25,985 bases of DNA from Nitriliruptoraceae bacterium (GTDB lineage: Bacteria; Actinomycetota; Nitriliruptoria; Nitriliruptorales; Nitriliruptoraceae). The DNA is taken from contig JBKGZF010000001.1 of assembly GCA_046545715.1 (NCBI GenBank), positions 1 through 25,985 on the forward strand. Reading direction: 5' to 3'. The position numbers and the translations under genes were made by a program. Shown piece after piece: positions 132-8,898 of the stretch (position 1 is the stretch's first letter; each line of letters starts with the position of its first letter). The notes below the pieces were generated by a model that searched no databases, was not told the origin of the DNA, and saw nothing but the letters and a program-made list of their open reading frames with translations.

Positions 132-1847
132 TCAGCCGGTGGTGACCTCCTCGGCGACCTGGTCGCGCAGGTCGCGCTTGAGGATCTTGCCGACCGGGTT
201 GCGGGGTAGCTGCTCGACGATCTCGAGGCGCTCGGGAAGCTTGTAGGAGGCCACCTGCTGCTCACGCAGGTGGTCGACGAGCTCAGCGAGCGTCGGTGGC
301 TCGTCACCCGCGGGCACGACCACCACGCACGTGCGCTCACCCAGCTCCTGGTCCGGCAGTCCGATCGCGGCCACCTCGGCGACCTTCGGGTGGGAGAGCA
401 CGAGCCCCTCGACCTCAGCCGGCGAGATGTTGTAGCCGCCACGCACGATCAGGTCCTTGGCGCGATCGACGAACCGCAGCAACGTGAGCTCGCCCGCGTC
501 GTCCGGCACGATCTCGAAGACATCGCCGGTGCGCAGATAGCCCTGGTCGTCGAAGGCCTGCAGGCCCTGCTCCTCGGCACGCCAGTAGCCGGCGAACACC
601 GTGGGACCGGTGATCCGCAGCTCACCGGGGTAGCCGGGCTCGGTGATCTCGCGACCGGTGATGACGTCCACCAGCCGGGTGCGCGTCCCCTGGCTCACCC
701 CGTTGGGCCAGGACAGCCCCTCAGCACCGAACCACGGGAAGTACTGCGCGCGGTTGGCGGGGTCGGGCACGGTCGCGGGGTCGCCGATCAGCGCGATCCC
801 CTCGTTGGAGCCGAAGAAGTTGGTGACCTCGATGCCGTAGCGGTCCTTCCAACCCTCGACCATCCAGGTCGACAGCGGGGCCGAGCCGGAGCCGATCACC
901 TTCAGCGAGGACACATCGGCCTGCTCGAGCAGCTCCTCCTTGGCGAGCAGGAGGTTGAGCACGGCGGGCGGCGCCACGGTGTAGGTCGGCCGCTCGACGG
1001 CGATCTGCTTGAGGAAGGTGGGCAGATCGAACGGGTGGTGCATGATCAGCTGTGCGCCCGTCATCAGCCACGGCACCATCATCCCGCCGATGCCGGCCAT
1101 GTTGACCATCGGGAAGGGGTTGAGCAGCACGTCGCTGGCGTCCAGCGGCGGCGCATCGGTCGTCGCCCGGGCGATGGCCATCCAGTCCGCCGAGGTCCGC
1201 GGCACCCCCTTGGGCGCGGACTCGGTCCCCGAGGTCCAGCACAGCGTCACCGCGTCGTTGGCGTGGTGGCTCCACTCACCGACACGCTGCTGCAGCGTGG
1301 CACGATCCGGGGCGCCTTCGACATCGAGGGCGACGACCTGGTCGTGCTCCTCGGCACCGAGCGCCAGCACGGTGTGCACCGACGGCGTGCGGTCACGGAT
1401 GGCGACCAGCTCCTCGGCGTCGGCGCGCTCGCCGATTCGCGCGGCGGTGACCATGGCGACCATGCCACCGATGTCGGCGAGCTGGATGATCTCGTGCGCC
1501 CGGAACTGGACGGGGAACGGCGAGGCGATCGCGCCGATCCGCATGATGGCGAGCAATGTCGCCGGCAGCTCCACGATGTTGGGCAGCTGGACCCCGACGA
1601 CGTCGTCACGCTGGATGCCGGCGGCGAGCAGCGCCGAGGCGATCGAGTCGACGCGCGCGTCGAGGTCGCGCCAGGCCCAGCGCTTGGGCTGCCCACCGAC
1701 CAGCTCGTCGCGGTTGGGCGGGTCGGCGACGGCGAGCTCGTCGCCGCGTTCGCGGACCTGACGGTCCAGCACGTCGAGGAGGGTCTCCTGCGACCACCAG
1801 CCCGCCTCGACGTAGGCGTCGTACACGTCCTGTCCATGCAGCCTCAT
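132..1847 (-). CDS. Acyl-CoA synthetase / AMP-forming ligase (ANL superfamily), ~571 aa
   Basis: Motifs CWTSGTESAPKG (P-loop), FGSNEG, YLRTGD, RAKDLIVRGG and PRNPVGKILK. SD GAGAAGG lies 6 nt before ATG 1847 (alternative GTG 1853). Substrate cannot be assigned. Confidence 0.9.
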   Translation of the reverse strand: MRLHGQDVYDAYVEAGWWSQETLLDVLDRQVRERGDELAVADPPNRDELVGGQPKRWAWRDLDARVDSIASALLAAGIQRDDVVGVQLPNIVELPATLLAIMRIGAIASPFPVQFRAHEIIQLADIGGMVAMVTAARIGERADAEELVAIRDRTPSVHTVLALGAEEHDQVVALDVEGAPDRATLQQRVGEWSHHANDAVTLCWTSGTESAPKGVPRTSADWMAIARATTDAPPLDASDVLLNPFPMVNMAGIGGMMVPWLMTGAQLIMHHPFDLPTFLKQIAVERPTYTVAPPAVLNLLLAKEELLEQADVSSLKVIGSGSAPLSTWMVEGWKDRYGIEVTNFFGSNEGIALIGDPATVPDPANRAQYFPWFGAEGLSWPNGVSQGTRTRLVDVITGREITEPGYPGELRITGPTVFAGYWRAEEQGLQAFDDQGYLRTGDVFEIVPDDAGELTLLRFVDRAKDLIVRGGYNISPAEVEGLVLSHPKVAEVAAIGLPDQELGERTCVVVVPAGDEPPTLAELVDHLREQQVASYKLPERLEIVEQLPRNPVGKILKRDLRDQVAEEVTTG

Positions 1848-2017
1848 GCTCACCCTTCTCGATCCTCAGCCGACACCGGACCCCGTGGCGCATCGGATGA
1901 TCGGCCCCCGACCACGACGGACGGACCGTGGTCAGCGCCGCCCGGCACCTGGCCGAGACGAGGACCACCGTCTCCCTCCACCGTCGACGGACCTGCCTCC
2001 CACCATCGACGCAGGAA

Positions 2018-2036
2018 CGCTTCGTTGGGCGAAGCG
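2018..2036 (-). terminator. 7-bp hairpin downstream of the DGC/B12 operon (possible terminator or operator)
   Basis: CGCTTCG-ttggg-CGAAGCG is a perfect inverted repeat. Only TTCC follows on the minus strand, so the U-tract is weak. Confidence 0.25.
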
Positions 2037-2133
2037 CTACTGGAAGTGAAGTCAACAACCTGGCCGCGCCTAGGTCAAGCGGCGGCGCGCCCTGCTGAGC
2101 CAACCGGTCACCGACGAAGCGAGGCCCATCGGC

Positions 2134-3150
2134 TCAGGCGCGCGGCTTGGACATCCCGGCAGCGACCAGCCGGTACGCGTCCTCGTCGCTGTCGCGCACT
2201 AGGTGGGCGAGGCTCTCGAGCCCGGCCGTGAGCGCGCTTTCGGGCACGCCCCGTGCAGCGAGCAGCGGCTCGAGCCATCCGAGGAACTCGGTGTACACCG
2301 CGGGATCGTCGACCAGCCGTGCCGCCGCGAGATAGCGCACGATGTAGACCAGATCCTCACGGGTACGGGCGCGCTGGCGTTTGTCGTAGGCCTGCAGTTC
2401 CGGGAAGCGCCGCTCCAGGTCGACGAAGGCGACATCAGCCAGATCGCCCGAACGCTGATCGAGCTCCAGGGCACCCTGATCGAGCCCGACCGGCTCACCG
2501 GAGACGGTGGGCGGCGCCTCGCGCCAGGCGCGCAGGATCTCCAACGCCTCGGCGACGTCGCTTCCGTAGGCGTCGGCACCGAGCACGGCGGCCCGGGCGG
2601 GGGTCAGCGCGCGGCCACCCACGAGGACCGCGACACCTTGACGATGTGCTGCATCCACGAGACGGGCAGTGCCGAGGTAGGACAGCGCGAGGTTGCAGGT
2701 CACCGCCAGCGCGTCTGGGCGACGCCTGGCGAGGAAGGCAGCGACGTCGTCCGCCGGCGTCGAGGCCCCGAGGTAGTCCACCCCCGCACCTCGCGCGCGC
2801 AGCAGCTCGGCGAACATCTGCGAGGCCAGTGCATGCCAGTCGCCCTCCGCACAAGCGACGACGACCTGACCCTGTGGCTCGACCGGGGTGGCGGTGCTGG
2901 TGGCGAGGGCCTCGAGGGCGGCCTGGGACACGCCGGTGACCAGGTGCTCGTCGGCGGTCGTCCACTGCGCGCGCTGCCAGCGCTCACCGACCTCGTGCTG
3001 CGCCGCACCCAGCAGGTCGGTGATCAGAACTGCGGGCGGCATGCCCTCGTCGACGAGGTCGAGGACCCGGCGCACTGCGCGACGGCGGTCCCCGGCGATG
3101 GCCAGCTCGAGGTAGTGCTCGACGTCCGCGGCCGCGATCGTCGCGCTCAT
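2134..3150 (-). CDS. Photocobilin-like B12 photoreceptor: four-helix cap, Rossmann B12-binding domain and C-terminal phycobiliprotein-like globin domain; no DNA-binding domain; 338 aa
   Basis: CarH-type W-x9-EH motif (W-QRAQWTTAD-EH), base-off D/E-x-H motif (EGDWH), and VDYLGASTP. The C-terminal RTREDLVYIVRYLAAARLVDDPAVYTE...ARGVP aligns by eye to phycobiliprotein CxRDxxYYLRYxxYAxxAGDxxxLDE...LGVP. Confidence 0.8.
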   Translation of the reverse strand: MSATIAAADVEHYLELAIAGDRRRAVRRVLDLVDEGMPPAVLITDLLGAAQHEVGERWQRAQWTTADEHLVTGVSQAALEALATSTATPVEPQGQVVVACAEGDWHALASQMFAELLRARGAGVDYLGASTPADDVAAFLARRRPDALAVTCNLALSYLGTARLVDAAHRQGVAVLVGGRALTPARAAVLGADAYGSDVAEALEILRAWREAPPTVSGEPVGLDQGALELDQRSGDLADVAFVDLERRFPELQAYDKRQRARTREDLVYIVRYLAAARLVDDPAVYTEFLGWLEPLLAARGVPESALTAGLESLAHLVRDSDEDAYRLVAAGMSKPRA

Positions 3151-4352
3151 CGTGCGACGATCTCGAAGCGGTGGAACGTCTCCGGTCGTGGCCGCAGCTC
3201 ACCACCCGGGATCCGCGCGTGGGAACGGCGGTGATCCTCCGAGGCCATGTAGGCCCGGAAGTCCTCCTCGCGGTTCCACCACGACACCATGACGAACTCG
3301 GTCGGGTCCTGACGGTCGGCCCAGACCTCCAGGTGCTTGAAGCCAGGCCAGCGCTCGACCAGCCGCAGGCGCTCGTCGAAGGCAGAGACGAGCTCGTCGC
3401 GACCACCTTCCGGCACCGACAGACGGCTGTGGGCAACGAACCCGCCCGTGCTCGGTCGCTCTACGACCTGCGTCGCCCGATCGGTGGTGGTCGTAGGGCG
3501 CGAGCCCGCCTCGGCCCACGCCCATCGGTCACGTCCGGCCGTCTTGGCGGCGTAGAGGGCCACATCGACCACCCGCATCACATCGTCGACCTCGCCCTCC
3601 ACCCGGGCGATCCCCGCCGAGAAGCTCACCGGCTGCGGCCGCGTGCGTTCCCAGGTCGAGCGCAGCCGCGCGAGCAGCGCCTCCGGGTCCGGCGGCGCCG
3701 GTTCGCTGCCTGGCAGCACGATCAGGAACTCCTCACCGCCGTAGCGGCCGGCGAGGTCGCGCGCCCGCACCGTGTCGGTGATCGCGCGACCGAAGGCTCT
3801 GAGCACCCGGTCTCCCTCGATGTGGCCGTGGGTGTCGTTGAGCTCCTTGAAGTGGTCGAGGTCGAGCATGACGACCACGTCCCCGCGTGTCAGACGCCCC
3901 AGGACACGCCCGAGCACCCGGCGGGTGGCAAGCCCCGAGAGCGGATCGGTCTCAGCCTCCTCGACCAGCCGCGAGGTCCGCTCGGCCAGCTCCAATGCGC
4001 GGTTGGCGTCACGGACGAACGCGGGCAGGTGGCGCGCGAGGTGCAGGTGGGCGAGGCTCACCGCCGGCGCCGCCGGCAGCACGGGCTCACCCACCCCGAA
4101 GGAGACGTCGACCGGCAAGGCGTCCTCGCCTACCTGCGCCGCGGGCGTCAACCGTCCGCCCAACGCCTTCACCAGTTCGCTGGCAACGACGCGTGCATCC
4201 TCAGGGCCGGCGATTCGCAACAGCTCGCGCGTCGCGGCCAGCACCACCTGCTCCACGGCGCCATCGCTGGCGTCCTGACGCTCGGGCTGTGCTGGCGCGT
4301 GCTCGTCCCCATCGCTGCGACTATCCGCACCGGTGGAGGAGGAGATGCGCAT
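3147..4352 (-). CDS. Diguanylate cyclase (GGEEF) with an uncharacterised N-terminal domain and a C-terminal ABM (IsdG/MhuD-like) domain, ~401 aa
   Basis: DPLSGL, MLDLDHFKELNDTHGHIEGD, RARD-LAGRY-GGEEF (I-site and A-site) and LYAAK..GRD. C-terminal FVAHSRLSV...WPGF..LEV...VMVSWWNREEDF...SH. ATG 4352 has an AGGA SD (alternative GTG 4385). The stop overlaps the next start (ATGA). Confidence 0.88.
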   Translation of the reverse strand: MRISSSTGADSRSDGDEHAPAQPERQDASDGAVEQVVLAATRELLRIAGPEDARVVASELVKALGGRLTPAAQVGEDALPVDVSFGVGEPVLPAAPAVSLAHLHLARHLPAFVRDANRALELAERTSRLVEEAETDPLSGLATRRVLGRVLGRLTRGDVVVMLDLDHFKELNDTHGHIEGDRVLRAFGRAITDTVRARDLAGRYGGEEFLIVLPGSEPAPPDPEALLARLRSTWERTRPQPVSFSAGIARVEGEVDDVMRVVDVALYAAKTAGRDRWAWAEAGSRPTTTTDRATQVVERPSTGGFVAHSRLSVPEGGRDELVSAFDERLRLVERWPGFKHLEVWADRQDPTEFVMVSWWNREEDFRAYMASEDHRRSHARIPGGELRPRPETFHRFEIVAR

Positions 4353-4458
4353 CCGGGTCCTGACGACCTCTGACGGTCGAGCCACGCCATGGCGGCGAGA
4401 CCGTCAGGGTACCGCCGGTGGGATGCGTGCACCGGGGCGTCCACCCCTCGGCCGCGAC

Positions 4459-5303
4459 TCAGTGATTGGACCTGGAGGGCCCACCCGGGTCGGACTGCAG
4501 CCAGGGACCGCCACGCAGCCTTGCCAGCCAGGGAACCGGGGCTTCGTCGGCCTCCTCGGCTCCGCTGGGGCGCATGAGCGAGCGTCGGTAGTCGCGGTTG
4601 AGCTGGCCGATCACGTCAAGCCCGATGTCGGCCGGGCAGGCCGGCACGCATTCGCCCATGCTGGTGCACGAACCGAACGACGCTTCCATCGTGCGCACCA
4701 TGGAGCGGACCCGGTCGTAGCGCTCGATCTGTCCCTGCGGGAGGGTGGCGAGGTGGGCCACCTTCGCGCCGGTGAACAGCTGCGCCGCAGCGTTCGGACA
4801 GGCGGCGACACAGGCTCCGCAGCCGATGCATGCCGCATGGTCCATGGCGGCCTCGGCCTCGCGCTTGCTCACCGGGTGGGTGTGCGCCTCGGGTGCCGCG
4901 TTGGTCGCGGTGGAGACGAACCCACCCGAGGCGATGATCCGATCCAGCGCGGAGCGATCGACGACGAGGTCCCGGACGACGGGGAACGCCCGCGCACGGA
5001 ACGGTTCGAGCGTGACGACGTCACCGTCGTCGAAGCTGCGCACCCGCTGCAGGCAGGCGGGCGTGGTGTCCACCGGCCCGTGAGGACGGCCGTTGACCAT
5101 CACCCCGCACGACCCGCAGATCCCCTCCCGACAGTCATGGTCGAAGGCGACCGGCTCACGTCCCTCGGCGACCAGCCGTGCGTTGAGCATGTCGAGCAGC
5201 TCGAGCACGCTCGTCTGGGGTTCGACCTCGTCGACCTCGTAGCGTTCGAACCCACCGGGCTCCTGCGGGGCGGATTGCCGCCAGACCAGCAGCGTCAGGC
5301 GCA

Positions 5304-5304
<1 letters not shown>
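4459..5304 (-). CDS. sdhB: Succinate dehydrogenase/fumarate reductase iron-sulfur subunit, ~281 aa
   Basis: CREGICGSC...C (2Fe-2S), CIGCGACVAAC (4Fe-4S) and CTSMGECVPAC (3Fe-4S). ATG 5304 overlaps the sdhA stop (TGATG). Confidence 0.93.
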
Positions 5305-7256
<1,952 letters not shown>

Positions 7257-7338
7257 CGTGGCTCCTGTCGGCCGTCCGGGACCCTGCACCGGCGGCATCG
7301 TCCGGCCCGGCTGCGGAGCAGCCGGGCCGGACCACCGG

Positions 7339-8829
7339 TCAGTAGATGCCCACCAGCCCCATCCACAGCGCGCCGATGACGCCGAAGATCAGCACGTTGA
7401 TCACGCTGGAGACGAACCCGTACTGCCACCACTTGCCGAGGCTGTTGTAGCCGGAGCCGAACAGCACCGGTGCAGGGCCGGTCGAGTACTGGGTGAGGCC
7501 ACCCATCAGGTTGGAGGCGAAGGCCAGCAGGAAGGTGGCGAGCAGCGGCGGGGCACCCGTCGCCAGTGCGGCGACCAGGAAGGTGGGGAACAGCGCGGTG
7601 ACGTGGGCGGTGTTGGAGGCGAAGAAGTAGTGGATGTAGAGGTAGGCGAGCAGCAGGATCGCCAGTGCCGGCGGCCAGCTCATACCACCTGTGAAGCCCT
7701 CGATCGACTCACTGATCCAGCCGATGACGCCGTACTCGGTGAGGAATGACGCCATCGTCACCAGCACCGCGAACCACACCAGGGTGTCCCAGGCCGACTG
7801 CTCCTTCTTGACGTCGTCCCAGGTCAGCACCGTGGTCAGCAGCAGCACCGACAGTCCGATCATCGCCGCGAGGGTGGCGCCGATCCCGAAGGCGTTGTCG
7901 CCGAAGATCCACAGGGCGATCAGGAGCACGAAGACCCCGAGCGTGATCCTCTCCACCTGCTGCAGCGGACCGAGCTCCGCGAGCTTCTCCCGGGCGATCT
8001 CGGTCGCCGCTGGGGTCTCGGTAACCGTCGGCTTGGACAGCTTGAACAGCACGTAGGGCAGGACGATGAGGGCGACCAGCCCCGGCACGCTGGCGGCCAG
8101 TGCCCACTGCCCCCAGGTCAGCTCGACCCCTTCGGCCGCGGCGAGCTCGGCGGCCAACGGGTTGGCCGCCATCGCCGTGAGGAACATCGCCGAGGTGACG
8201 GCGTTGACCTGGAACGCCGAGGCCATCAGGAACGAGCCGATGCGCTCGGGCCCCGCATCCGGCTCGCTGTCGTAGGCCACGGCGAGTGAGCGCGCGACGG
8301 GGAAGATGATCCCGCCGGCGCGCGCGGTGTTGGAGGGGGTCGCCGGTGCGATGACCAGGTCGGTCGCGGCCAGTCCGTAGCTCAGCCCAAGTGTCTTCTT
8401 GCCGAGCATGCGGACGAACAGGTAGGCGATCCGCGTCCCGAGGCCGGTCTTGATGACCGCGCGCGAGATGAGGAACGCGATCACGATGAGCCAGATCACG
8501 CTGTTGCTGAAGCCCGACAGCGCATCATCGAGCGTCAGCGCCTGGAGCACGGTCGCGATCGTCAGCCCGATCAGCGCGATGGCGCCCATCGGCAGAGGCT
8601 TGGCGATGATCGCGACGATCGTGGCGACGAAGACCGCCAGCAGCACCCATCCCTCGGGCTCCACCGCCGCTGGGGTGGGGATCAGGAAGATGAGCACGCC
8701 GATCACGGGCGGGACCAGCCAGCGCATCAGCGTCTTGCCCAACGGCTCCTCGTGTGTCTGGGGACCGGGGGGCGGTTCGCCTCCGACCGAGCCGGAGCGG
8801 CTCTGTCCCTGTGCGGATCCGACCGACAT
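7339..8829 (-). CDS. DASS-family anion permease (CitT/TtdT/DiT-like exchanger clade), ~496 aa
   Basis: Multi-pass hydrophobic protein with two SNT motifs (PATPSNTARAGG, FASNTAH), SAMFLTAMAANPL and TQYSTGPAP. SD GGAGG lies 6 nt before ATG 8829. Confidence 0.92.
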   Translation of the reverse strand: MSVGSAQGQSRSGSVGGEPPPGPQTHEEPLGKTLMRWLVPPVIGVLIFLIPTPAAVEPEGWVLLAVFVATIVAIIAKPLPMGAIALIGLTIATVLQALTLDDALSGFSNSVIWLIVIAFLISRAVIKTGLGTRIAYLFVRMLGKKTLGLSYGLAATDLVIAPATPSNTARAGGIIFPVARSLAVAYDSEPDAGPERIGSFLMASAFQVNAVTSAMFLTAMAANPLAAELAAAEGVELTWGQWALAASVPGLVALIVLPYVLFKLSKPTVTETPAATEIAREKLAELGPLQQVERITLGVFVLLIALWIFGDNAFGIGATLAAMIGLSVLLLTTVLTWDDVKKEQSAWDTLVWFAVLVTMASFLTEYGVIGWISESIEGFTGGMSWPPALAILLLAYLYIHYFFASNTAHVTALFPTFLVAALATGAPPLLATFLLAFASNLMGGLTQYSTGPAPVLFGSGYNSLGKWWQYGFVSSVINVLIFGVIGALWMGLVGIY

Positions 8830-8898
8830 CATCGACCTCCTCGCCCGTCACGATCGGGCGCGACGTCCACGCGACACGGCGCTGTGGGGTGGGGTGGG

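What the first reader, a model, noticed from the sequence alone, without database searches (positions are those of the whole stretch)
2134..4352. Split photocobilin / diguanylate cyclase operon with a built-in heme-oxygenase-like domain
Seen: two genes coupled by an ATGA overlap (3147-3150). Gene 1 is an intact GGEEF cyclase ending in an ABM domain. Gene 2 has the CarH W-x9-EH and D-x-H motifs plus a phycobiliprotein-like domain and no HTH. Known (from memory): photocobilins combine AdoB12 and biliverdin domains, and one characterised form is fused to a diguanylate cyclase. Inference: here receptor and cyclase are separate chains that form a light-switched complex, and the ABM domain supplies or senses the tetrapyrrole. 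That would be a self-contained heme/bilin/B12-controlled c-di-GMP switch. I do not know of a described GGDEF-ABM fusion.
Basis: partly seen in the sequence, partly recalled or inferred. Interest (0 to 1): 0.85.

Follow-up and report, generated by a model that had tools for sequence, protein, structure and literature searches.

The report
Split photocobilin light switch operon
Two overlapping genes encode a vitamin-B12-plus-bile-pigment light sensor and the c-di-GMP-making enzyme it most likely controls; the enzyme also carries a heme-oxygenase-like domain of a special type, with unknown function, that accompanied B12 light sensors wherever I looked.

Summary
Two minus-strand genes share an ATGA overlap at 3147-3150. 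Gene A (3147-4352) encodes a small GAF-like N-domain, an intact GGDEF cyclase and an ABM domain. Gene B (2134-3150) is a full-length stand-alone photocobilin (PDB 8J2Y, E=1e-80) that keeps W-x9-EH, DxH and the biliverdin-binding Asp.

The "split photocobilin/cyclase" reading is well supported. The pair is collinear with the characterised fusion AbDPcob. It recurs in dozens of Actinomycetota genomes among unrelated neighbours, and the three modules occur fused or split in at least six arrangements.

The "built-in heme oxygenase" reading is only partly supported. The ABM domain is closest to IsdG/MhuD but has Ser at the catalytic Asn position. It belongs to a wider "S-type" clade fused to GGDEF, EAL or histidine-kinase outputs. 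In 401 sampled genomes, 7 of 7 S-type copies lie beside a B12 photoreceptor gene, including a CarH and a B12-only module that have no bilin domain. None of 23 Asn-type copies does. The N-domain is equally sensor-linked (9 of 9).

This is a natural two-chain variant of a known photoreceptor system with two uncharacterised companion modules. Earlier follow-ups in this scan found the same system on other DNA.

The parts
3147..4352 (-). Gene A: N-domain, GGDEF and S-type ABM protein (401 aa from the ATG at 4352; an alternative GTG at 4385 gives 412 aa, the numbering used here)
3960..4256 (-). N-domain (residues 44-142): small alpha/beta module with a long C-terminal helix leading into GGDEF. Weakly GAF-like. 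A photocobilin-specific companion module.
   Evidence: AF2 pLDDT 96. Foldseek gives only KdpD GAF at E=0.026. Atlas structure hits are GAF-type. 9 of 9 hits in 401 genomes lie beside a Pcob gene.
3525..3956 (-). GGDEF diguanylate cyclase domain (residues 144-287). GGEEF at 3726-3740 and RxxD I-site at 3756-3767. The metal- and GTP-binding Asp, Asn and Lys residues are conserved in the family alignment.
3150..3440 (-). S-type ABM domain (residues 316-412). Ser320 (3426-3428) replaces the IsdG Asn7. Arg339, Trp369/370 and His389 (3219-3221) are kept.
3147..3150 (-). ATGA stop/start overlap that couples gene A to gene B
   Evidence: The same 4-nt overlaps occur in L001, L002, L003 and at both junctions of the three-gene form.
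2134..3150 (-). Gene B: stand-alone photocobilin (338 aa)
2905..3120 (-). B12-binding_2 four-helix bundle, with W58-x9-E68H69 at 2944-2979
2542..2868 (-). Rossmann B12-binding domain. D104-x-H106 at 2833-2841 holds the lower axial His.
2149..2508 (-). Photoglobin (bilin-binding, phycobiliprotein-like) domain. Asp266 (2353-2355) matches SasPcob Asp270 and Trp292 matches Trp296. There is no Cys for covalent attachment.
   Evidence: alignments read against PMC10979010 section 7

Best explanation
This is a naturally split, two-chain version of the photocobilin-diguanylate cyclase photoreceptor. Gene B makes a stand-alone photocobilin that should bind adenosylcobalamin (green light) and a non-covalent bilin (red/far-red light). 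Gene A makes the output enzyme. The overlapping stop and start give coupled translation of the two chains. By analogy with AbDPcob, I infer the following: in the dark the AdoCbl-bound sensor dimer holds the cyclase in a low-activity state, and Co-C photolysis rearranges the sensor so that c-di-GMP synthesis rises. Contact is most likely made through two companion modules on gene A. The first is the GAF-like N-domain in front of GGDEF. The second is the C-terminal S-type ABM domain. The ABM domain most likely binds a tetrapyrrole or otherwise partners the B12 photoreceptor, and is probably not an ordinary heme oxygenase. Shown here: domain identities, motif conservation, collinearity with the fusion, conservation of the module in several fusion states, and the exclusive genomic linkage of both companion modules to B12 photoreceptors. 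Inferred: light control, the direction of regulation, contact sites and any ligand of the ABM domain.
For: Gene B is a full-length homologue of AbPcob and SasPcob, with all light-sensing residues and the BV-binding Asp and Trp. Gene A has an intact GGEEF motif, I-site and substrate residues. The fusion P0098 is collinear with the two genes: N-domain plus GGDEF at 22-277 (56% identity to gene A), then Pcob at 276-595 (43% identity to gene B). AbDPcob has the same domain order. It is activated more than 10-fold by light, and isolated AbDGC is activated in trans by light-state Pcob. Of 79 species-representative loci, 61 have the cyclase adjacent or fused, and 35 of those also have a full ABM. The arrangements seen are DGC-ABM|Pcob, DGC|ABM|Pcob with (A/G)TGA overlaps at both junctions, ABM|DGC-Pcob, DGC-Pcob and DGC|Pcob, spread over three major clades of the Pcob tree. 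Flanking genes differ in every locus. S-type ABM is also fused to an EAL protein whose gene overlaps a Pcob gene, and to a histidine kinase that directly follows a domain-permuted Pcob. In 401 Actinomycetota genomes, 7 of 7 S-type ABM loci lie beside a W-x9-EH B12 photoreceptor gene, against 0 of 23 Asn-type loci. 9 of 9 N-domain loci lie beside a Pcob gene. The genome has a PduO-type adenosyltransferase to make AdoCbl.
Against: There are no experimental data for this organism or for any split pair. The sign of regulation could differ: BV-free SasPcob activated AbDGC in the dark. About 40% of cyclase-linked loci lack ABM and some hold only ABM remnants, so ABM is dispensable in some lineages. 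Two S-type ABMs next to Pcob have lost the conserved His, which argues against an obligatory His-ligated ligand. The N-domain fold assignment is weak. Genomes in the samples are related, so the 7/7 and 9/9 counts overstate independence; the S-type loci come from three families. Flanks in those tests were only 1.5 kb. The module is patchy even among close relatives (9 of 41 genomes).
Confidence: 0.6

Rival explanations
1. The ABM domain is a dedicated bilin-producing heme oxygenase that supplies the chromophore for the photoglobin domain of gene B, playing the role that BphO plays for bacteriophytochromes.
For: After TT1380, the closest solved relatives by profile are heme-degrading HmoB, MhuD, IsdI and IsdG, ahead of polyketide ABMs. 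The heme-ligand His, the Trp and the MhuD Arg26 equivalent are conserved. Canonical heme oxygenase PF01126 was found in only 4 of 50 module-bearing genomes and not in this genome. The bilin-binding Asp is kept in nearly all these Pcobs. One active-site substitution in MhuD (R26S) switches its product to biliverdin, and MhuD holds biliverdin at nM affinity. Photoglobin fused to canonical HO is a known architecture.
Against: The catalytic Asn7 position is Ser throughout the clade, and Asn7 is critical for IsdG/MhuD activity (PMC6018153). S-type ABM also accompanies a CarH (MerR plus B12 domain, no photoglobin) and a B12-only module, where no bilin is needed. Its position at the N-terminus of histidine kinases suits a sensory or coupling domain. 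Presence of ABM does not correlate with the bilin-binding Asp. This genome has a separate canonical MhuD-like gene with the full N-W-H triad.
Confidence: 0.22
2. The ABM domain is an independent heme, O2 or redox sensor that gives the cyclase a second input unrelated to the photocobilin.
For: A His-ligated heme pocket could be retained while catalysis is lost. The domain is fused to signalling outputs: GGDEF, EAL and HisKA.
Against: An independent sensor would not be expected to lie beside a B12 photoreceptor gene in 7 of 7 sampled loci. Nor would it be expected as a free-standing ~110-aa protein inside Pcob or CarH operons with no output of its own.
Confidence: 0.1
3. The ABM domain is only a dimerisation scaffold that brings two GGDEF domains together, with no ligand.
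For: ABM domains form alpha+beta barrel dimers, and GGDEF catalysis needs two domains. The model shows the standard ABM fold.
Against: The domain occurs as a separate small gene in 16 three-gene operons and upstream of fused DGC-Pcob genes, where it cannot tether the cyclase. The pocket residues Ser, Arg, Trp and His are nearly invariant over a wide clade, which is more than a scaffold needs.
Confidence: 0.05
4. Gene B is an ordinary corrinoid carrier, as in JGI's automatic name 'methanogenic corrinoid protein MtbC1', and its adjacency to the cyclase is incidental.
For: NCBIfam gives weak sub-threshold hits to corrinoid proteins. JGI uses that name for homologues.
Against: All corrinoid-protein scores are far below their cut-offs (52 against 215 bits). 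The protein matches photocobilin structures over its full length, including the photoglobin domain. It carries the W-x9-EH photoreceptor signature. The pairing with the cyclase is conserved and also occurs as a fusion.
Confidence: 0.02

Closest known systems
AbDPcob, the photocobilin-diguanylate cyclase fusion of an Acidimicrobiaceae bacterium (PDB 8J2Y for the sensor part; Zhang et al. 2024, PMC10979010)
   Same: Same modules in the same order: N-domain plus GGDEF, then B12 four-helix bundle, Rossmann domain and photoglobin. Gene B matches 8J2Y at E=1e-80 over its full length. The relative P0098 aligns to both window genes end to end.
   Different: Here the chain is cut between cyclase and sensor into two overlapping genes, and an S-type ABM domain sits at the cut. 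Gene B keeps the biliverdin-binding Asp, whereas AbPcob has His there and binds BV weakly.
SasPcob, the stand-alone photocobilin of Saccharothrix syringae (PDB 8J2W dark, 8J2X light)
   Same: A stand-alone B12 plus photoglobin protein of about 340 aa with W-x9-EH, DxH, Asp270 and Trp296 equivalents. It is proposed to act through protein-protein contacts.
   Different: Identity is lower (E=2e-48). The partners proposed for SasPcob are STAS, SpoIIE and PP2C proteins, not a cyclase.
IsdG/IsdI/MhuD/HmoB heme-degrading ABM monooxygenases
   Same: Same ABM ferredoxin-like fold (TM about 0.8). These are the best characterised sequence relatives. The His ligand, the Trp and the MhuD Arg26 equivalents are conserved.
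   Different: The catalytic Asn is Ser. All heme-oxygenase NCBIfam models score far below cut-off. The domain is genomically tied to B12 photoreceptors, unlike the Asn-type paralogues in the same genomes.
CarH/LitR AdoCbl-dependent light-sensing repressors (PDB 5C8D)
   Same: Same B12 photosensory core and motifs. A CarH homologue in another actinobacterium is followed by an S-type ABM gene.
   Different: Gene B has no MerR DNA-binding domain. It has a photoglobin domain, and its output is enzymatic rather than transcriptional.
Bacteriophytochrome-diguanylate cyclases with an operon-encoded heme oxygenase (bphO-bphP type; from general knowledge)
   Same: A functional analogy: a light sensor using a tetrapyrrole-derived chromophore, a GGDEF output, and a heme-oxygenase-like gene in the same operon.
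   Different: The sensor fold is unrelated (PAS-GAF-PHY against B12 plus globin). The helper here is not a canonical HO and its function is unproven.

Membership tests
Photocobilin (B12 + photoglobin photoreceptor) | B12-binding_2 four-helix bundle followed by a Rossmann B12-binding domain | tested here: met
   Pfam PF02607 (E=2e-12) and PF02310 (E=6e-18)
Photocobilin (B12 + photoglobin photoreceptor) | Light-sensing signature W-x9-EH plus D/E-x-H (lower axial His) | tested here: met
   W58, E68, H69, D104 and H106. The same residues occur in 8J2Y and 8J2W in the alignments.
Photocobilin (B12 + photoglobin photoreceptor) | C-terminal five-helix photoglobin domain homologous to those of SasPcob and AbPcob | tested here: met
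   phmmer alignment covers residues 7-334 of 338 against 8J2Y and 6-323 against 8J2W
Photocobilin (B12 + photoglobin photoreceptor) | Bilin-contact residues (SasPcob Asp270, Trp296) | tested here: met
   Asp266 and Trp292 by alignment
Photocobilin (B12 + photoglobin photoreceptor) | Binds AdoCbl and biliverdin and photoconverts | not testable with these tools
   Needs purified protein and spectroscopy
GGDEF diguanylate cyclase | GG(D/E)EF active-site motif with metal- and GTP-binding residues; RxxD I-site | tested here: met
   GGEEF at residues 216-220 and RARD at 207-210. D175, D177, K180, N183 and D192 are invariant or nearly so in A1. Pfam E=3e-29.
GGDEF diguanylate cyclase | Makes c-di-GMP | not testable with these tools
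   Needs an enzyme assay
IsdG/MhuD-type heme oxygenase | ABM ferredoxin-like fold | tested here: met
   Pfam ABM E=8e-14. AF2 pLDDT 90.6. Foldseek TM 0.77-0.84 to IsdI, IsdG and TT1380.
IsdG/MhuD-type heme oxygenase | Catalytic triad Asn7 / Trp67 / His77 (IsdG numbering; PMC6018153) | tested here: not met
   Trp and His are present, but the Asn position is Ser320. It is Ser in 121 of the 148 best representative hits; of the other 27, 18 are gapped at that position in the alignment.
IsdG/MhuD-type heme oxygenase | Reaches the curated NCBIfam cut-off of a heme-oxygenase model | tested here: not met
   Best score is PRK13315 at 29.9 bits against a cut-off of 119; HmuQ scores 25.4 against 130
CarH/LitR light-dependent repressor | N-terminal MerR-type DNA-binding domain | tested here: not met
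   No HTH family hit in Pfam. The NCBIfam CarH model matches only the B12 part, at 53 bits against a cut-off of 400.

The most novel reading that the evidence does not exclude
The Ser-type ABM domain, together with the small GAF-like N-domain, is a dedicated and so far uncharacterised accessory of adenosylcobalamin photoreceptors in general, covering photocobilins of both domain orders, CarH and B12-only modules. On this reading its job is tied to the B12 centre or to passing the signal on, for example as a second tetrapyrrole/corrinoid site or as the docking surface that lets one stand-alone sensor drive cyclases, phosphodiesterases and kinases. It would not be there to make biliverdin.
Probability: 0.4. 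Interest if true: 0.75.

Novelty: new variant of a known kind. Interest (0 to 1): 0.55.

Why it matters
Photocobilins were described only in 2024, and how stand-alone members reach their targets is an open question. This locus is a natural version of the experiment done in vitro with a cut-apart AbDPcob: sensor and cyclase as two co-translated chains. It points to two conserved modules on the partner that travel with the sensor. If the S-type ABM domain and the N-domain are the coupling or cofactor-handling parts, they would explain how one B12 sensor can be wired to different outputs. They would also give new parts for green/red optogenetic tools. The S-type versus Asn-type distinction gives annotators a simple rule for not calling these domains heme oxygenases.

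Tried and rejected
1. Correlation of ABM presence with the bilin-binding Asp of the photoglobin. The Asp is near-universal with or without ABM, so the test is uninformative. One of the three search patterns contained EDL, which biases the sample towards Asp.

2. The idea that ABM supplies the upper His ligand that TtCarH provides with His132. The residue after W58 is His in 24 of 87 Pcobs, with no link to ABM presence. Two Pcob-linked ABMs lack the His. The idea has no support.

3. Fold search to tell IsdG-like from cofactor-free ABM oxygenases. Foldseek ranks SnoaB, IsdI and generic ABMs alike, so the fold does not discriminate.

4. Identity of the N-domain. There is only a weak GAF-like signal, so it stays unassigned.

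5. Promoter and terminator scan of 1700-4700. Nothing was found, as expected for a 71% GC actinobacterium.

6. The search for related loci on metagenome contigs with broad S-type ABM alignments A5 and A6. I used the genome search instead.

8. Supplementary files of PMC10979010 hold no mention of ABM, monooxygenase or heme oxygenase.

9. No paper in the searchable library links CarH/LitR with ABM/IsdG.
Full report
**Observation.** The window is a 25,985-bp, ~70% GC contig. It comes from a 76%-complete Nitriliruptoraceae-type MAG. The same-genus genome G051 appears to be the one that holds locus L009, whose record is titled Nitriliruptoraceae; I infer this from matching contig positions.

Two minus-strand ORFs with strong GC3 bias fill 2134-4385. 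Gene A ends and gene B starts in an ATGA at 3147-3150.

Pfam finds GGDEF (residues 144-287) and ABM (316-390) in gene A. In gene B it finds B12-binding_2 (11-82) and B12-binding (95-203), with no HTH.

**Gene B is a photocobilin.** Against PDB sequences, the whole protein (residues 7-334) aligns to 8J2Y, the sensor part of the photocobilin-cyclase fusion AbDPcob, at E=1e-80. It aligns to the stand-alone SasPcob (8J2W/8J2X) at E=2e-48. CarH and corrinoid proteins match only the B12 part.

I read the alignments against the published description (PMC10979010). Gene B keeps Trp58 and Glu68-His69 (adenosine pocket), His106 (lower ligand), Asp266 (SasPcob Asp270, the key biliverdin contact, which is His in the weakly binding AbPcob) and Trp292 (Trp296). 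There is no Cys for covalent attachment. The genome has a PduO-type adenosyltransferase, so AdoCbl can be made.

**Gene A is a competent-looking cyclase with two extra modules.** GGEEF, the RxxD I-site and the metal- and guanine-binding residues are conserved in an alignment of 25 homologues.

In front of GGDEF lies a conserved ~95-aa domain (residues 44-142) that no library names. Its AlphaFold model is confident (pLDDT 96). It resembles GAF domains only weakly.

Behind GGDEF lies the ABM domain (model pLDDT 90.6, standard ABM fold).

**The pair is one system.** AbDPcob has the order DGC, B12 domain, bilin domain (PMC11796333). A fused relative, P0098, aligns end to end with gene A (N-domain plus GGDEF, 56% identity) and then gene B (43% identity). 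The window is therefore the fusion cut in two, with ABM inserted at the cut.

Homologues of both proteins are numerous and repeatedly share contigs. In three distant loci the same two genes overlap by 4 nt amid unrelated neighbours.

I fetched 79 species-representative loci and scored them with my own HMMs:
- 61 have the cyclase adjacent or fused.
- 35 of those also have a full ABM, and a few more have ABM remnants.
- The arrangements are DGC-ABM|Pcob (as here), DGC|ABM|Pcob, ABM|DGC-Pcob, DGC-Pcob, DGC|Pcob and rarer ones.
- In 15 of the 16 three-gene loci, both junctions are (A/G)TGA overlaps, so they are real genes and not frameshifts. L025 is the exception: its ABM frame has no start codon and looks frameshifted.

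On a Pcob tree, the ABM link appears in all three major clades and the DGC-ABM fusion appears in at least two places. This is Rosetta-stone evidence that the three modules work together.

Published experiments provide the mechanism by analogy. AbDPcob is activated more than 10-fold by light, and the isolated cyclase is activated in trans by light-state photocobilin, with SEC-MALS evidence of contact.

**What the ABM domain is.** By profile search, the nearest solved relatives after TT1380 are the heme-degrading HmoB, MhuD, IsdI and IsdG (E from 3e-11 to 1e-5), ahead of polyketide ABMs. The equivalents of MhuD Arg26, Trp66 and His75 are conserved.

The catalytic Asn7 position, however, is Ser320. 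Asn7 is critical in IsdG and MhuD (PMC6018153). No heme-oxygenase model reaches its cut-off. I therefore do not file the domain as a heme oxygenase.

A search of 1.84 billion representatives found 736 relatives. Of the 148 best, 121 carry Ser at that position together with Arg, Trp and His; of the other 27, 18 are gapped at that position in the alignment. I call this clade S-type. S-type domains are fused to:
- EAL;
- GGDEF;
- a REC-like/B12-binding domain;
- the N-terminus of PAS-histidine kinases.

The EAL-N-domain-ABM gene overlaps a Pcob gene. The ABM-kinase gene directly follows a photocobilin of the permuted order, photoglobin first.

**Test from the ABM side.** In an even sample of 401 Actinomycetota genomes, the seven S-type loci all lie beside a W-x9-EH B12 photoreceptor gene. 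None of the 23 Asn-type (MhuD-like) loci examined does.

Two of the seven partners have no photoglobin. One is a true CarH (TtCarH, E=6e-31), with the ABM gene about 35 nt downstream. The other is a 226-aa B12-only module.

The window's own genome also has a separate MhuD-like gene with the full Asn-Trp-His triad.

**What this means for bilin supply.** These results weaken the idea that the domain exists to make biliverdin for the photoglobin. Three points still speak for it:
- Canonical heme oxygenase was found in only 4 of 50 module-bearing genomes.
- It was not found in this genome, which is 76% complete.
- A single MhuD substitution can switch the product to biliverdin.

I keep bilin supply as the main rival at about 0.2.

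**The N-domain is equally sensor-specific.** All nine hits in the same 401 genomes lie beside a Pcob gene, twice without any GGDEF. I ran this test after reading earlier notes of this scan that called it a docking module.

**Caveats.**
- The sampled genomes are related; the S-type loci come from three families.
- Flanks in the sampling tests were 1.5 kb.
- Many genomes are MAGs, so absences are soft.
- One unpublished genome (G396) was in the sample.
- ABM is missing or decayed in about 40% of cyclase-linked loci, and two S-type copies lack the His.
- The module is patchy among relatives: 9 of 41 genomes.

**Comparison with the literature.** Photocobilins, their cyclase fusion and in-trans activation are published (PMC10979010). 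GGDEF outputs and "ABM monooxygenase" in photoglobin operons are listed without analysis (PMC8717448). I found no paper describing any of the following:
- the split cyclase/sensor operon;
- the GGDEF-ABM fusion;
- the S-type clade;
- its link to CarH-type sensors.

Earlier follow-ups in this scan reached similar readings on other genomes. This is therefore a recurring system and not a one-off.

**Verdict.** This is a real, conserved, natural two-chain variant of a known photoreceptor system. It most likely acts as a light-switched c-di-GMP synthase. It carries two uncharacterised sensor-linked modules whose roles are the interesting open part.

Noticed in passing
window 4459-8832 (-): Directly upstream on the same strand lie an SdhB/FrdB-like Fe-S protein (4459-5415), an SdhA/FrdA-like flavoprotein (5304-7298) and a DASS-family dicarboxylate transporter (7339-8832). 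Only 74 nt separate sdhB from gene A, so co-transcription cannot be excluded. These neighbours are not conserved at other loci.
   Followed up: partly
own genome G000:C62:6355-6597 (-): A separate MhuD-like ABM gene with the full Asn-Trp-His triad. Similar Asn-type paralogues occur in many module-bearing genomes and are never next to B12 photoreceptor genes.
   Followed up: yes
L120, L122, L124, L125: In one actinobacterial family, Asn-type ABM genes lie next to genes with weak GGDEF matches. This is a different ABM/c-di-GMP pairing that I did not examine.
   Followed up: no
L114/L128 and L117/L129: S-type ABM genes next to Pcob genes in which the otherwise invariant His is replaced (SAARIP, SSERIP).
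   Followed up: partly
L004/L022, L048, L053: Only the C-terminal half of the ABM domain remains between or upstream of the cyclase and sensor genes. This looks like decay of the ABM gene in some lineages.
   Followed up: partly
P0303: A protein with a REC-like/B12-binding domain (QxHxxG in place of DxHxxG) and a C-terminal S-type ABM domain. This is a further B12-ABM fusion, without a photoglobin.
   Followed up: partly
L104, L105: Stand-alone photocobilin paralogues of Nitriliruptor-type genomes lie beside unannotated 461-aa and 439-aa proteins instead of a cyclase.
   Followed up: no
one search list: JGI's automatic annotation names dozens of these photocobilins 'methanogenic corrinoid protein MtbC1', which is misleading.
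   Followed up: yes
L158, L159, L160: The GAF-like N-domain occurs beside Pcob genes without a GGDEF domain: as a short protein, at the C-terminal end of a 284-aa open frame, and at the C-terminus of a long protein (>596 aa) on the opposite strand.
   Followed up: partly
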